Shown here one piece after another: positions 1,712 through 64,000 of a stretch of DNA of 64,000 nucleotides (its first letter is position 1; each line of letters begins with the position of its first letter). A program made the position numbers and the translations under genes. The notes beneath the pieces are model-generated. The model searched no databases. It was not told where the DNA came from and saw only the letters and a program-made list of their open reading frames with translations. Origin of the DNA: Amoebophrya sp. A120 (lineage: Eukaryota; Protista; Dinoflagellata); NCBI GenBank assembly GCA_905178155.1, contig CAJINV010000006.1, positions 2,582,658-2,646,657 on the forward strand, given 5' to 3'.

Positions 1712-4700
1712 TCAGTGCTGAAACTCCGGCGGGATAAAGCCACCATCAATCGGCGGTACGCCCATCGGATTCATCATCCCAGTTATCGTACGAAAAAAGT
1801 GTTTCACAACTGCGAGGATAATTTTGCAGCTTTTGCATCACAAGTTTGTTCTACACGACAGAGAAAATTCGCCATGCGAGGTTCCTAAGGTAAAACTACA
1901 CTGCCAAAAATGAAAATCCTCCGTTGTCTTGTTACATGTGTAGCATGACAAAGAACACTTCTGCGATGCATTTTCTGCATCACAAGTTTACAGCGAAACA
2001 GTTTTTTCTTGCGATACCCATGTCTGGGCCGGGTCCGAAGCCGCCCTTCATCATTCCCCCCGGAGGTCCGCCGAATCCACCCTTCATCATGGGATCATAT
2101 CATATGTAAAAACGAACCCAAAGCGTAGGTATTCAGGTAGGGAAATCTGCAAGACAAATCACTGAGCTTTATTGGCTGTTGCGCATGACAAGTTTCAGTT
2201 CGCAGTGTTGTCCCGTTTAGCTAGTGCAGCAGCATCAAAAATGTAGCGTTTCATGCTGATTCGAGCATCACAAATTTCAAAACAGCACTAGAAAATGCGC
2301 TTCATGGGGCTCCGCATGAGAGACATTCTGGGGACGTTTTTACACAGGATAGATCAAACCCGCCCTTCATGCCGCCATCAAAACCACCACTGTTGAATCC
2401 TATCAACTGCAAATATCCCTGGGTGTCTGGAAATTATGACGCAACTTGTGATGCTGCCTTTCCATTCTAACAAAGTCTGTATTGCATGGGCAGCAAGAAA
2501 AGTCTATTGGCTGCTACGTGTAGTAGGGGGTACTTATTTCTCATGCGGTATAGGCATTAGGAAGCCCTCACAAAACCTGTCATGCTACGGCGTGCATCAC
2601 AGACATCGTGAGTTATCCAAAATCTGCATGACAAACCTTCCACTCATCCAGACCCAGACGACATATTTGCAATTCATAAATCCCTTGTCCTTCCCAAATC
2701 CGCCGAAGCCGCCGCCGCCAAACTTCCCCTTGCCAAATATCAAATGCAAATAAGTCTGGGTCTGGAACTTTGCTAGACTTGTCATGCTGGTTTTCCATGA
2801 GCCATATGATCTGCAATGGAGGACCTAGCATGACAGATTCCGTGAGATCACTATCATGCCTATCCTGCATGACAAACTGCCTCCCAACTTGATCTAAAGT
2901 GGACAGCATTTGGTAATCATGCAGCACAGATTTTTGCATGATTCAGATTTAGCATGACAAGTTCGCATCCTTCCAGACCCCGACATATTTGCAATGCATA
3001 CCAAAGCCCCCGCCGCCAAACTTGCCGAAGCCCTTGCCTTTACCCTTGCCGAAGCCGCCTTTCTTACCTTGGTGTCAGTTGACAGTTGTGTAGTGGACAT
3101 AGTTGTTTATGTTTTCCTTTTCGCGTGAAAAATTAAATTTGAAAAAAGACTTTTCGTATTCTTACATGACAGAACTTTATTTGAAGGATCGCTTTGGCGT
3201 CTCAATCTAAGGGACGGGGACCACACCAATTTACTTATTTGCGTGAAAAGCCACCAGCCAGAATCAGAAAAAAAATACTCTACCAAAATTGTCAAATCCT
3301 CCAAACTATGAACTGCAAAAGCATCGTACTAGTGATACAAAAGTAAATTGCATTAGCATTACAAATTTGCTCAGCATTAGAAGTGGAATTTGTAATGCGG
3401 ATGTACCTTAATGAAAAAATTTGTAATGCATGAATCCGATTAGTACGAGTACGATACTTTTGCAGTTCATACGAACTTCCCGCCTTTTCGGAAGCCCTTC
3501 TCTACGCCTGTTCCGCCTGTGACATTTGAGGCCTTTGCATCAAAATGAAATATCCTCCCACCCAATAGTGAAACTGAGAACTTGTCATGCTAATTTCTTT
3601 TTGAAAACTTGTCATGCTGATTAGTAGCCGCAAGTCATGTCGTCTTCACGCTAGAAACGCAAAACATGCGGACTTTAGTGCTGGCTCGCGTGGGAAGGCA
3701 AAGGCCTTGCATTTTCAGCATGACAGGCACAGGAGGCAACTGGAGGTGGGAAACAGCATAACAAATTACCCGCAATAACAAGGCCAGAACTGCGTCTCTT
3801 GCCCCTCTAGCAATACAATTACAAACTGATTTGTATACGAAAATCCAGCATCACAGATTTTCTGTCCGATATGGGATGGGGGATTCATTTTCCTCACAGT
3901 ACTTTGACTTCTGCTTTGCTTCGTCGAAGGACTCGTCGTAATGAACCTAGTTTGGAAAGATTCTTGCAATACAAATTTTTACGTTTTAATATTTCCCTAT
4001 ACGTTTCTTGAATTATGCCTCGTTCGCATGACAAATTCCACAGCTGGAGCAACCTCGACGTTGATGGTGAACTACGTCTCAACGTCAACCCATTTCGATT
4101 TCCTTTTCCTTTTCCGCATGACAAAAAGCACCACTACCACTTGTAAGAAGTGCCCTCAAGTCAAGTCAAGTCAACGCGTGGGCTAGTCTCTGAATAGTAA
4201 TCCTCGCTCAGAGATTTGTCGAAAGTATCGTAGCCGTGCGTGTATTGTTATCACGCTCTTCTTCTAGTGGGGGGCTGTGGCCTAACTATCTGACCATGTA
4301 CGTTCCGTCAGATTCTTTTTGGAACCACACGCCCGCCACCTGCACCTCTTCCTTGCCGGTGTTTTCGCAGAAGAAAACCTCGCCCACCTGGAATACTATT
4401 CCTGGGTCGTCTTCCAATTCCCAAAAACCCGTCCTGTTACTGATCTGTTTCCACTTTTTCCCGTGGAGACTCGCGGCCACCTGTGCCCGCGCCTGCTCTT
4501 CTTCTGCCTTTTGCTGGTCCAGCCTTCTTCGGCGTTCCGCCTGCATTTCCTGCGCCCGTTCGGACTTCTGCCCCGGCTTCGGCCCCTTTTTTCCTGGGGG
4601 TTTTTTGGCTGTTGCGTACGGCCGGCGCCTTGTCAGCATTTCGCGCACCACCGGCCCCGCCGGCTTTTGCAGCTCTAGGTCTTGCAGCGTCAGGCCATAG

Positions 4701-5074
4701 TGCTCTAGATCTGCTGCTGCCAGCTTGCCCCATGGCGTGCCTTCTTCGATTTCCCGGCGGATTCTTGTGATGGAACCCTCCCCCGAGGAATCCCGCGCTG
4801 CGTGACCGATCCAAGAGATTCTTTTTTCCCTTATCTCCGTTTCGATCAGCTGCACCCCGAGGGACTGGCATAACTCCGCCCGTGATGGGGATGCTTCCCA
4901 GTCCCAGATTCCAAAAAAGAAGTGCCCTCTATTCTATATAAGTACCTCATCTCCTTCTTGCAATGGCGCGCCCTGTACATCGTTTGCGTGCACAAACACA
5001 TCGCCTTGTTCTGTCTCGATGAAGCCGAACCCCTTGGCCTGGTTGAAAAATTTTACGACGCCGGAGCAAGCCAT
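1712..5074 (-). CDS. Cold-shock domain protein with Gly-rich (GKG/GGF/PMM) C-terminal tail, multi-exon
   Basis: Exon 5074-4946 [43 protein letters not shown] (RNP1 KGFGFI, RNP2 VFVH); GT-AG intron 4945-3947; then [24 protein letters not shown]...; ends [24 protein letters not shown] (1714-1712). Six introners plus canonical introns. Confidence 0.92.
1784..2016. mobile_element. Introner family G/H
   Basis: TIR tatcgtacgaaaaaagtgtttc / gaaacagttttttcttgcgata; DR imperfect. Confidence 0.75.
2098..2351. mobile_element. Introner family C
   Basis: TIR tatc..tgtaaaaacg; DR gatca. Confidence 0.8.
2401..2678. mobile_element. Introner family A
   Basis: TIR tat...tgcaaatatgtctgg type; DR aatcc. Confidence 0.85.
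2738..3000. mobile_element. Introner family A
   Basis: TIR; DR ccaaa. Confidence 0.9.
3307..3471. mobile_element. Introner family B
   Basis: TIR tatgaactgcaaaag.atcgtac; DR caaac/cgaac. Confidence 0.9.
3538..3901. mobile_element. Introner family E (diverged)
   Basis: Degenerate TIR; DR ctttg; removal restores [11 protein letters not shown]. Confidence 0.8.
4158..4916 (-). mobile_element. 5'-truncated RTE-like non-LTR retrotransposon in intron 1 of the CSD gene
   Basis: ORF with FFGIWDW...[18 protein letters not shown] (RTE post-RT motif RLRWxGHxxR); (TTGAC)n 3' tail; 13-bp TSD aagaagtgccctc at 4145-4157 and 4917-4929. Confidence 0.85.
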
Positions 5075-62150: not shown

Positions 62151-64000
62151 CTACTTCCCATAAATCCGGAAGTCCCCTTCCAGAGACGCCAGCATTTTCT
62201 GGTTCCTCTCAAACACATCTGACAACAGACTGTCACTCTGGTTATAGTGGCGATTTAGCTGTTGAGACGTTGAAAAATTTTGCATGACAGAAGTGCCCAT
62301 GGTAGAAGTTGCGGACAGATTTAGGAGCGATTTGTTCATCATCTGCGTTTGATGTTCTCTACTGCTTCCTTGCATGGTCGGCATAACTAATCCCGCGCTA
62401 TTAGAAGAAGAAATGTTCTTGCTTGCCAACACCGCCGCAGCCGCCACGTCGTCCTTTGCGTTCCGGCCCAACAGCTATGACAGTGCACAGCTTCCCCGCC
62501 GCGCCCTCATTTGTATAGCATGAACGGCAATACAAGCATCAGCAAGACAGCCGGTTTTGCATGACAATTTGGTACTAGATCGTAGTGCTACTTGGGCTAC
62601 CAGAACTTGTCATGCATAATAGTGACAGGAGGGAAAGCGTGGAATTGGTATTCTGCATGAGAAATGTGAACGAGGGGGAGTTGTGCACTGTAATACCAGC
62701 TCCGCCTGGCACCGGATCAGCTCACGTCGCGCCAGCCCCACACAGTCGATGTTCGCAAACGTTTCGTTCGAGATGGCGCCGGCGGTTTTCCGCAAGGGGG
62801 AGTTTTGCTTTTGCTCTTCCGACTTCACTAGCACTTGATACTCAAAGATCACAGGAAAAAAGTATTACAGTTACAGATTTGTTGGAGTTTCATCATCACA
62901 AAGTTGCTCGACATGGCAACGAAAACCTGTGATGCGCAGACTATAACGGAAAACACGCACGAAATGAGGCTGGCGCTGGTAAGCATTTTCTGCATGACAG
63001 AGGTTGTCTGTCTTGCTTGGCTTCTATCACGTTGTGTAAGTGTAACACTTTTTTCTTACGATATCAAAAACCTTGCACGCGCGCACGTACTCGAGAAACT
63101 CCTTTTCCAGCGCGATCTGGTTGGAAAACGACCGAACCATCCGGCCCTTTATGGGAGTGTCAGGATCGAAATCGACATAATCGAAAAATTTGCAATGCAT
63201 AAAATGTAGGGCCCGCAAGGCCTGTGTTGGAGAGGAGGCAAATGAGACCGATCGCAAGCCTGTTTAGCCCTATACATGTACTGCCAGAGTAGCATGACAG
63301 GCGCAATCTTCTTTGCCTACACAGCATGACAGACTGGGTTTTGGTGCTCCCAAAATTTGTCATGCGCCACTTAGAAACTGAGGCTCCAACTGGTATCGAT
63401 TTTATGCATCACAAATTATTTCGATTTTGTTAATTTCGATCCTGACGCTTCCATACCCTTCTCCACCGTCGTGATGACAAACTCGCTTCTATTATCCCGG
63501 GGAAACATCCCCCCTCCCTATATCGAAAAGGTACGTCGCAGAAAATTTGCAATGCTGATTTGCGACCACAAATGATCTCTGTCTTGCAAGAAGGCAATTC
63601 CACAGGCCCCGCCGCATTATGCAGGCGATTCGTTTGTGATGCTGTTTGGCCTACAGCGCAGACGTTTCTCATGCTAAGCGCCTAGGCCAAAACCTCTCTA
63701 CTCAGGCTTGATGTGGGCCTGCAGTCCTCTTCAGCAAGACAAATCTGATTTGTGTACTCAAATCCAGCATCACAAATTTCGTTTTCGATATGGGGAGGAG
63801 GGATTTTTCCTTTTGATATCTATCCTCGGCAAAGACGTACGACCCACGCTGCAGTCTGTAGTGGGAACAAGACGCGCTACACATCAAATGCCTATAACAA
63901 ACCTGGAGGCGCAGCGTAGGTTTGCTTACCTACAAAAGCAGCATCACAAAGCCACCGGCTCCTCCTGACTCCAGTACCACAGATGGAAAATGCCGACTAC
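62151..64000 (-). CDS. 3' part of a hypothetical multi-exon gene running off the window
   Basis: Exon frames RMVRSFSNQIALEKEFLEYVRACKVF, ...KMLASLEGDFRIYGK-TAG separated by three introners. Confidence 0.5.
62847..63063. mobile_element. Introner family G (diverged)
   Basis: TIR gaaaaaagt.ttaca; DR tcaaa. Confidence 0.75.
63150..63455. mobile_element. Introner family D
   Basis: TIR; DR ccctt. Confidence 0.9.
63493..63818. mobile_element. Introner family E
   Basis: TIR; DR tctat. Confidence 0.85.

What the first reader, a model, noticed from the sequence alone, without database searches (positions are those of the whole stretch)
1784..63818. Orientation-independent, non-GT-AG introns derived from TIR elements (~76 copies, ~7 families)
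Seen: elements of ~150-365 bp with TIRs, TA...TA ends and 5-bp DRs sit inside conserved coding motifs. Deleting element plus one DR restores the frame (TOP1 GCCSL|RVEH at 56783-57054, DR CCTCC, where no register gives GT/GC-AG). The same subfamily occurs in both orientations within one gene (5914-6179 vs 7593-7854) and across same-strand genes (2738-3000 vs 14292-14556). Known: IR/DR-bounded introners were described in Amoebophrya. Inference: removal depends on a symmetric signal (TIR hairpin or bound protein), not U1/U2 consensus sites; the mechanism is, to my knowledge, unresolved.
Basis: partly seen in the sequence, partly recalled or inferred. Interest (0 to 1): 0.8.

Follow-up and report, generated by a model that had tools for sequence, protein, structure and literature searches.

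The report
Amoebophrya introners spliced in either orientation
These are the already published transposon-derived introns of the marine parasite Amoebophrya A120: RNA-like contigs lack them to the base in either orientation and without GT-AG ends, and they are likely removed by a loosened form of the cell's normal splicing machine that reads the element ends at a fixed offset.

Summary
I count 86 TAT...ATA inverted-repeat elements (141-364 bp, seven multi-copy families) with 5-bp target duplications in minus-strand genes. Two exons match Amoebophrya sp. A120 proteins at 100%, and the termini fit the published A120 introners (Farhat et al. 2021). So this is that system itself, not an analogue.

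RNA-like contigs lack 25 elements plus exactly 5 nt, in both orientations; a DNA-like run retains those it spans. Mismatched duplications fix the cut 1 nt before the 5' TAT and 4 nt after the 3' ATA. This polarity follows the transcript, not the element. The intron starts N-T-A-Y, like the genome's own GT-A donors (9 of 9). The two ends tolerate different changes, and I found no sign of selection for RNA pairing, so a purely symmetric hairpin signal is only partly supported. A relaxed, U1-less U2-type spliceosome is likeliest (0.6); no lariat evidence was available.

A TGTSATGC-type box occurs in 465 of 467 elements and in 9 of 9 GT-AG introns. This scan already noted the register and the box on other DNA of this genome; those notes are unreviewed and not independent support.

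The parts
2401..58938 (.). Family 0, 32 copies (246-318 bp): 2401-2678, 2738-3000, 5914-6179, 6377-6636, 7593-7854, 8378-8638, 10636-10888, 11165-11416, 12443-12699, 14292-14556, 15225-15486, 17020-17279, 19189-19440, 23299-23551, 25743-26005, 26178-26450, 27652-27912, 31707-31978, 32378-32667, 33128-33389, 46730-47047, 47090-47335, 47449-47722, 49121-49417, 53927-54217, 54610-54875, 56106-56370, 56783-57054, 57243-57498, 57723-57990, 58066-58330, 58677-58938; 21 in one orientation, 11 in the other
   Evidence: RNA joints for 23299, 31707, 32378, 33128, 53927, 54610, 56783
2098..62695 (.). Family 1, 10 copies: 2098-2351, 16664-16947, 17766-18068, 24924-25213, 25278-25506, 26503-26789, 28433-28716, 47769-48048, 56440-56724, 62476-62695; 9:1 orientation
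   Evidence: RNA joint for 56440; register of 17766 from P0003
3307..54447 (.). Family 2, 9 short copies (146-176 bp): 3307-3471, 8690-8839, 11877-12028, 13032-13181, 15818-15993, 22220-22369, 23104-23251, 25561-25706, 54292-54447; 5:4 orientation
   Evidence: RNA joints for 54292, 23104 (opposite orientations) and 22220
3538..63818 (.). Family 3, 7 copies: 3538-3901, 6958-7281, 11480-11807, 18239-18548, 24476-24782, 46246-46555, 63493-63818; one orientation in the window, both in the outside loci
   Evidence: RNA joint for 24476
12056..63455 (.). Family 4, 7 copies: 12056-12387, 14886-15193, 16280-16590, 17443-17749, 48086-48391, 54929-55241, 63150-63455; 5:2 orientation
   Evidence: RNA joint for 54929
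7304..63063 (.). Family 5 (26813-27035, 43476-43693, 58385-58611, 62847-63063; 2:2) and family 6 (7304-7555, 21458-21718; 1:1)
   Evidence: RNA joint for 21458
1784..60458 (.). 12 singletons with the same TAT..ATA ends: 1784-2016, 18821-19130, 19727-19956, 20034-20297, 28152-28378, 43792-44141, 49748-50050, 50107-50391, 50466-50812, 51084-51434, 55810-56080, 60239-60458
21992..23077 (.). Three decayed elements without a recognisable target duplication (0-2 of 5 matches): 21992-22208 (intron GT..TC), 22412-22552, 22829-23077 (intron GT..CC); still removed exactly
   Evidence: joints in X7
22210..22215 (-). 6-nt exon between two adjacent elements (at the -1/+4 register)
   Evidence: X7 joint 21987-22370 with 5 letters between
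53740..60500 (-). DNA topoisomerase I gene, 754 aa, 14 elements and 5 GT-AG introns (55548-55693, 57557-57661, 58987-59107, 59496-59752, 59972-60153)
   Evidence: model identical to P0001; Pfam Topoisom_I, Topoisom_I_N, Topo_C_assoc; contig offsets 275, 136, 339 and 81 nt reproduced
13756..20664 (-). 998-codon frame over 14 elements; its last 744 aa equal P0003
5723..9626 (-). 698-codon frame over 7 elements, including 5914 and 7593 in opposite orientations; Methyltransf_32 profile matched in pieces on separate exons
   Evidence: (E 9.1e-6 and 0.003)
10599..13188 (-). 277-codon frame over 7 elements, weak DSBA-like thioredoxin match
   Evidence: E 0.009
46067..51826 (-). 796-codon frame over 11 elements; no protein match found, almost no RNA cover in the runs laid
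21389..23809 (-). 238-codon frame over 7 elements and 2 GT-AG introns (21779-21911, 22630-22749), joined in one X7 contig
31707..33389 (-). Transcript with 3 elements and 2 GT-AG introns (32102-32278, 32751-33082); joint 32373-32669 fixes the register uniquely
   Evidence: X3 and X7

Best explanation
These are the non-autonomous TIR transposon introns (introner elements) of Amoebophrya A120, absent with exactly one 5-nt duplication from RNA-like contigs, and they are likely excised from pre-mRNA by a relaxed U2-type spliceosome that reads the TIR itself. Step 1 (inferred from the anatomy): an unidentified transposase inserts a TAT..ATA element with a 5-bp duplication, in either orientation and with no visible target preference. 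Step 2 (shown at every junction that can be resolved): the cut lies 1 nt before the 5' TAT and 4 nt after the 3' ATA in transcript direction, so the intron is N-TAY...ATA-NNNN and the coding sequence is restored whatever the duplication. Step 3 (inferred): TAY supplies donor positions +2..+4, read by U6 without U1 and without a G+1/AG requirement; the inverted copy supplies the 3' landmark, possibly a branch A 7 nt from the end. Because each TIR gives both readings, orientation does not matter. Step 4 (inferred, weaker): the TIR hairpin and a TGTSATGC-type box, shared with GT-AG introns, help bring the ends together.
For: Identity: exons 100% identical to A120 proteins P0001 and P0003. Published A120 IR motif: TAT + 7 nt + AAA (PMC7789003 section 11); termini here match. 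Removal: 17 elements skipped in listed joints and 8 more fixed by TOP1 contig offsets. Register unique at 32378 (X3, X7), 60239 (X3, X7 pieces; P0001), 22829 and 21992 (X7) and 17766 (P0003); 9 more junctions are compatible and none excludes it. Only r=1 reproduces both P0001 and P0003 without mismatch. Polarity follows the transcript: opposite-orientation copies of families 0 (32378, 17020) and 4 (54929, 14886) all exclude the mirror register. +2 is T in 86 of 86, +1 is free (G26, A23, T19, C18), with 45 end combinations. All 9 RNA-defined GT-AG donors are GT-A, 8 of 9 GT-A-Y. All nine predominant non-canonical A120 sites in Table S4 of PMC7789003 have T at +2. Among 323 oriented elements the terminal base deviates 0 times at the 5' end and 4 times at the 3' end; TIR position 3 deviates 10 times at the 5' end (8 to TAC) and twice at the 3' end, p 0.039. 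PMC7789003 reports U2, U4, U5, U6 and 83 of 89 proteins present, U1 and snRNP27 undetected. PMC11732430 passages link SNRNP27K/METTL16 loss to +4U donors and note U1-less splicing in C. merolae. Precedent: Fritillaria TIR introns need the U2 spliceosome (passages).
Against: No lariat, branch point or spliceosome dependence was tested. The runs are contigs whose RNA nature is the tool's guess (supported by removal of GT-AG introns and empty intergenic bins). No enrichment of G at +1 or AG at the 3' end in 207 + 55 oriented duplications, which is unusual for a spliceosome. +5 is C or G, not G. The end asymmetry rests on 19 variant copies; the terminal-base contrast alone is not significant (p 0.125). 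A at -7 is seen in 6 of 9 RNA-defined GT-AG introns (read by eye) but not in 48 ab initio ones (0.35, about background; that predictor recovered only 5 of 9 known introns). All 120 folded elements pair end to end, so a hairpin-guided cutter is not excluded. P0001 and P0003 are annotations, probably built from RNA, so they are not independent of the contig evidence.
Confidence: 0.6

Rival explanations
1. A non-spliceosomal, hairpin-guided RNA endonuclease plus ligase (or a separate machine like the one proposed for euglenid nonconventional introns) cuts 1 nt 5' and 4 nt 3' of the TIR stem. A staggered cut on a stem would also give transcript polarity and orientation independence.
For: Cut-site bases are free. 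End-to-end pairing forms in 120 of 120 folded elements, median 21 of the first 25 nt. U1 was not detected (PMC7789003). Euglenid introns have a similar TIR and TSD anatomy and are released as full-length circles (PMC11282704 section 6).
Against: The stem base pairs poorly (positions 4, 5 and 7 match in 0.56, 0.61 and 0.44 of 367 elements) while TAT is kept. No G.U excess on the sense strand (413 vs 395, p 0.55; low power, since most mismatches are inherited). Elements with 6-7 of 20 terminal matches are cut exactly. The donor motif is shared with GT-AG introns, and GT..non-AG intermediates occur.
Confidence: 0.25
2. A sequence-specific protein bound to the TAT ends and to the internal box (on DNA or nascent RNA, perhaps a domesticated transposase) marks the interval and places the cuts, with the spliceosome or another enzyme as catalyst.
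For: Box in 465 of 467 elements, peaking at 33-34, 41-45, 63-65 and 72-78 nt from the ends. 16 boxes in 9 of 9 GT-AG introns against 0.8 in shuffles (maximum 4 of 500); 0.34 per kb in exons.
Against: The motif set was chosen after looking at the data. Box distance from the 3' splice site differs between GT-AG introns (23-29 nt in 4 of 9) and elements. Three boxes lie in the TOP1 5' UTR, which is retained in the contigs. GT-AG introns could simply descend from old elements. No protein candidate was found. This is not exclusive with the best explanation.
Confidence: 0.1
3. Precise, programmed excision from DNA (as for ciliate IESs) at some parasite stage, so that transcripts come from an element-free template.
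For: The elements are TIR transposons with TA ends. Only one informative DNA-like run was laid, and contigs drop rare variants.
Against: X1 (even depth of about 27-30 over genes and spacers) shows 0 support for the six element joints listed, and a 5193-nt contig runs through five whole elements (the tool warns that some X1 joints were not counted). The cut polarity follows transcription. GT-AG introns are removed in the same contigs, and retained pieces of an element and of the neighbouring GT-AG intron have similar low depth (5.3 and 5.6 against 202.6).
Confidence: 0.05

Closest known systems
Introner elements (IEs) / non-canonical introns of Amoebophrya sp. A120 (Farhat et al. 2021, PMC7789003; also Gozashti et al. 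2025, PMC12130899)
   Same: Same organism by 100% protein identity; IR = TAT + 7 nt + AAA; 5-bp DR (legend of Fig. S19); published mean length 240 nt; many families; tens of introns per gene; co-oriented genes.
   Different: No difference in kind. The passages and supplement text I read call the splice sites variable relative to the hairpin and do not state one register, orientation independence or the internal box. Their Table S4 already lists only N-T donors among the nine predominant A120 sites. Figures 3 and S19-S25 could not be seen and may show more.
Non-canonical TIR introns of Fritillaria borealis (as summarised in PMC11282704 section 6 and 10.1101/2025.08.15.670264, passages)
   Same: MITE-derived introns with TIR and TSD, non-GT-AG, removed by a U2-type spliceosome.
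   Different: There AG-AC and AG-AT ends prevail; here both terminal dinucleotides are free except T at +2, and the spliceosome role is untested.
Euglenid nonconventional introns (PMC11282704 section 6)
   Same: TIR stem set inside the intron ends, TSD-like repeats, non-canonical junctions.
   Different: Euglenid stems use CAG/CTG at +4..+6 and -8..-6, and the excised introns are circles. Here TAT sits at +2..+4 and ATA at -7..-5; the excised form is unknown.
IS3EU/GingerRoot DNA transposons (PMC10045372, passages)
   Same: TA..TA termini and TIRs.
   Different: Their TSD is usually 6 bp; here 276 of 384 outside copies have an exact 5-bp TSD and none has 6. No transposase was found.

Membership tests
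Amoebophrya A120 introner elements | Host is Amoebophrya A120 | tested here: met
   two exons 100% identical to proteins that the source names Amoebophrya sp. A120; whole TOP1 model identical
Amoebophrya A120 introner elements | IR starting TAT, 7 variable nt, then at least 3 A | tested here: met
   T 1.0, A 1.0, T 0.99 (TAY was required for detection); A 0.89-0.94 at positions 11-13 over 384 outside copies; definition
Amoebophrya A120 introner elements | 3-5 nt direct repeat at the exon/intron boundary | tested here: met
   5 bp exact in 56 of 83 and 276 of 384
Amoebophrya A120 introner elements | Repeated families removed from transcripts with non-GT-AG ends | tested here: met
   7 families; 25 of 86 elements absent from RNA-like contigs; 0 of 86 GT-AG at the resolved register
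U2-type spliceosomal intron | GT/GC-AG ends | tested here: not met
   0 of 86 at the resolved register; 2 of 86 in an equivalent register
U2-type spliceosomal intron | Donor +2..+4 like the genome's own GT-AG introns | tested here: met
   TAT 81, TAC 3, TGT 1, TAA 1; GT-AG donors GT-A in 9 of 9
U2-type spliceosomal intron | Lariat intermediate with a branch A; dependence on U2 and U6 | not testable with these tools
   only contigs held the genes; A at -7 is constrained in elements but not enriched in 48 predicted GT-AG introns
Euglenid-type nonconventional intron | Terminal stem joining the ends | tested here: inconclusive
   predicted in 120 of 120, but no strand-specific selection and decayed copies still spliced
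Euglenid-type nonconventional intron | Excised as a full-length circle | not testable with these tools
   needs RNase R or debranchase data
IS3EU/GingerRoot transposons | TA..TA termini | tested here: met
   definition
IS3EU/GingerRoot transposons | TSD usually 6 bp | tested here: not met
   0 of 384 and 0 of 83 with a 6-bp duplication
IS3EU/GingerRoot transposons | IS3-like DDE transposase in an autonomous copy | tested here: inconclusive
   no transposase Pfam hit among 25 window frames; five long TIR-bounded candidates in the loci held no long ORF; whole genome not held

The most novel reading that the evidence does not exclude
A120 has one splicing code for all its introns: a U1-less spliceosome that needs only U-A-Y at +2..+4 and an A 7 nt from the 3' end, ignores the terminal dinucleotides, and is guided by a factor binding an inverted TGTSATGC box shared by introners and GT-AG introns. 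Any TAT..ATA transposon with a 5-bp duplication is therefore a perfect intron at any site and in either orientation.
Probability: 0.3. Interest if true: 0.78.

Novelty: already known. Interest (0 to 1): 0.38.

Why it matters
The class is published, but how more than 60% of this parasite's introns are removed without GT-AG is open. A fixed -1/+4 register with transcript polarity turns 'variable splice sites' into a rule: it predicts where a branch point should lie, which bases a reporter must keep, and how gene finders should model these introns. Orientation-free, scar-free splicing would also explain how such elements could reach 17% of the assembly (PMC7789003) without breaking genes. The added points are modest, and this scan has already noted them on other pieces of the genome.

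Tried and rejected
No whole genome is held, so no transposase or snRNA search in it was possible. The look-up of sequencing runs listed no holder on record as RNA. Raw-read run X9 laid only 4 reads, 3 of them at an element end with foreign flanks: no evidence on expression. X6 and X8 gave only short repeat contigs. Joint tables were cut (853 and 31 rows not shown). TIR pattern in viral contigs: 0 hits. In metagenome contigs: 147 loci, all from one assembly, none overlapping the window's exons, so no empty-site comparison. 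No protein match for the exon 48398-49111. Rfam: 0 matches. Bias towards G at +1 or AG at the end, and covariation of the first and last intron base: not evident. G.U versus A.C test and sense versus antisense folding energy: no asymmetry. A at -7 in predicted GT-AG introns: not supported. IS3EU/GingerRoot membership not assigned because the TSD is 5, not 6 bp. Perfect orientation neutrality is not established: pooled counts 75:49, 22:23, 13:4, 10:22, 4:11, 7:14, 1:5 (p 0.024, 1.0, 0.049, 0.05, 0.12, 0.19, 0.22, uncorrected). One decayed element was misplaced by one base and corrected.

Full report
Observation. A scan for TA..TA pairs with at least 13 of 20 inverted matches gave 176 candidates, 46 with an exact 5-bp flanking repeat; ten shuffles gave 0-1. 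Relaxed scans and self-BLAST gave 83 elements, and RNA joints added 3 decayed ones: 86 elements of 141-364 bp, 22.5 kb of the 64 kb. Clustering on the cores without the TIRs gave seven multi-copy families and 12 singletons. The 5-bp duplication is exact in 56 of 83. Removing element+5 nt opens minus-strand frames of 998, 796, 768 and 698 codons; other lengths do so only when they keep the frame (+2, +8). A codon model trained on the window called 82 of 83 junctions on the minus strand, 67 of them confidently.

Identity. A TOP1 exon and an exon of the 998-codon gene are 100% identical to proteins labelled Amoebophrya sp. A120. Farhat et al. 2021 (PMC7789003; I saw the abstract, passages, section 11 whole and supplement passages) describe A120 introner elements whose IR starts with TAT, has seven variable bases and ends in at least three A, with a 5-bp direct repeat in the legend of Fig. 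S19, and report that U1 was not detected. The termini here have that form. The finding is therefore the published class. Gozashti et al. 2025 (PMC12130899, passages) also list A120 introners, including a TIR family with an integrase-like ORF. PMC12005148 (passages) says such elements are confined to part of the genus.

Removal from RNA. Contigs of X3 and X7 skip 53927, 54292, 54610, 54929, 56440 and 56783 by element+5 nt. X1, with even depth of about 27-30 over genes and spacers, shows 0 for these joints and has a 5193-nt contig through five elements. Offsets within the X7 TOP1 contig (275, 136, 339, 81 nt) are reproduced when all 14 elements and 5 GT-AG introns are removed, and that model equals P0001 letter for letter. 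The second lay added 11 elements. That X3 and X7 are RNA is the tool's guess; it fits their loss of GT-AG introns and their empty intergenic bins. Both orientations are removed: family 0 within TOP1, and family 2 in two genes (23104 and 54292).

Cut register. With an exact duplication the cut cannot be placed. Mismatched duplications place it. Let r be the number of bases of the upstream duplication copy, in transcript direction, that fall in the intron. r=1 is the only solution at 32378 (joint 32373-32669, X3 and X7), 60239 (piece starting at 60460, 81-nt exon, and P0001), 22829 and 21992 (X7) and 17766 (P0003). Compatible sets are 54929 {1,2}, 55810 {1,2}, 22412 {0,1}, 57723 and 17020 {0-2}, 56440 and 14886 {0-3}, 31707 and 62476 {1-5}. 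No junction excludes r=1, and only r=1 gives both annotated proteins without mismatch. For the decayed copies I placed the element ends after seeing the joints, so they weigh less. If the register followed the element, opposite copies would show r=4; 17020 and 14886 exclude that (from P0003). The intron is thus N-TAY...ATA-NNNN, with +1 free and 45 end combinations among 86. All nine predominant non-canonical A120 sites in Table S4 have T at +2, so the rule is latent in published data. I did not find it, or orientation independence, stated in the passages read (searches; term look-ups). The paper's figures could not be seen and may bear on this.

Larger sample. A TIR pattern found 147 loci in one metagenome assembly with the same families (best match 98%); whether this is the same strain is unknown. 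Among 384 elements the duplication is 5 bp (276 exact, 341 with at most one mismatch, none of 6 bp). Strand calls agreed within loci in 226 of 230 cases. Oriented duplications show no preference for G at +1 or AG at the end (AGG in 7 of 207 and 0 of 55). Pooled with the window, all seven families occur in both orientations, three with mild skew.

What is read. All 9 RNA-defined GT-AG donors are GT-A, 8 of them GT-A-Y, the same +2..+4 that the TIR supplies. In 323 oriented elements with exact duplications the terminal base never changes at the 5' end but does 4 times at the 3' end (p 0.125). TIR position 3 changes 10 times at the 5' end, mostly to TAC, and twice at the 3' end (p 0.039). This suggests separate roles for U at +2 and A at -7, on small numbers; 48 ab initio GT-AG introns did not show A at -7, with a weak predictor. 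Hairpin: every one of 120 folded elements pairs end to end, but stem positions 4, 5 and 7 match poorly, G.U and A.C mismatches are equal on the sense strand (413 vs 395), and copies with 6-7 of 20 terminal matches are still cut exactly. A TGTSATGC-type box, inverted at the two ends, is in 465 of 467 elements (15 per kb in the window) and in 9 of 9 GT-AG introns (16 against 0.8 expected), but rare in exons (0.34 per kb). The motif set was chosen after inspection, and three boxes lie in the retained TOP1 5' UTR.

Mechanism. Most likely (0.6) a relaxed U2-type spliceosome reads N-U-A-Y through U6 and measures the 3' cut from the inverted copy. Support from print: U2, U4, U5 and U6 present, U1 and snRNP27 undetected; loss of SNRNP27K/METTL16 goes with +4U donors, and C. 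merolae splices without U1 (PMC11732430, passages); Fritillaria TIR introns need the U2 spliceosome (10.1101/2025.08.15.670264, passages; PMC11282704, passages and section 6; the original Fritillaria and euglenid papers were not read). Rivals: a hairpin-guided endonuclease and ligase (0.25), a box-binding marker protein (0.1, compatible with the first) and DNA-level excision (0.05). Shown: anatomy, removal, orientation independence, register at resolvable junctions. Inferred: the catalyst, the branch point, the role of the box and the transposase. TA..TA ends recall IS3EU/GingerRoot, but their TSD is usually 6 bp (PMC10045372, passages), so no superfamily is assigned.

Verdict. Real, already known as a class, with a sharper rule than the text I could read states. 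Earlier unreviewed notes of this scan report the same register, the A at -7 and the box on other pieces of the genome. I had reached the register before the first look-up (note), the box earlier (note) and the -7 contrast. These notes are not independent evidence. Interest 0.38.

Noticed in passing
window 22210-22215 (-): A 6-nt exon between two adjacent elements is kept in the X7 contig, so two non-canonical introns are cut 6 nt apart.
   Followed up: yes
window 60538-60638: Three copies of the internal box lie in the TOP1 5' UTR, which RNA-like contigs retain; the box alone does not cause removal.
   Followed up: partly
L053:4001-4972: A family-0 element enlarged to 972 bp by an insert of about 0.7 kb that ends in an A-rich tail and is flanked by a repeat of about 19 bp containing the box; it looks like a retro-insertion into the box (read by eye). 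L034, L033 and L018 hold smaller enlarged copies.
   Followed up: partly
window 4289-4933 (-): Element-free 215-codon frame with no Pfam hit; its start resembles the tail of LINE-type reverse transcriptases (recalled, not tested).
   Followed up: no
window 33500-43400: Stretch without detected elements, partly G+C-rich (up to 0.585), with several 180-290 codon minus-strand frames lacking Pfam hits.
   Followed up: no
window 18800-20664 (-): The open frame continues about 250 codons upstream of the start of annotated protein P0003, across further elements; the annotation may be short at its N terminus.
   Followed up: partly
window 46067-51826 (-): 796-codon frame over 11 elements; one of its exons had no match in two protein collections, and there was almost no RNA cover in X3 or X7.
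   Followed up: partly
window 58066: Raw-read run X9 has 3 reads matching this element end with other flanks but none on exons; it may hold a relative with the same TIR family or a trace of this strain.
   Followed up: no
PMC7789003 section 11 and Table S4: Strain A25 has IRs starting TTA and predominant TT donors, which would also put T at +2 and A at +3 (inference, not tested on sequence).
   Followed up: no
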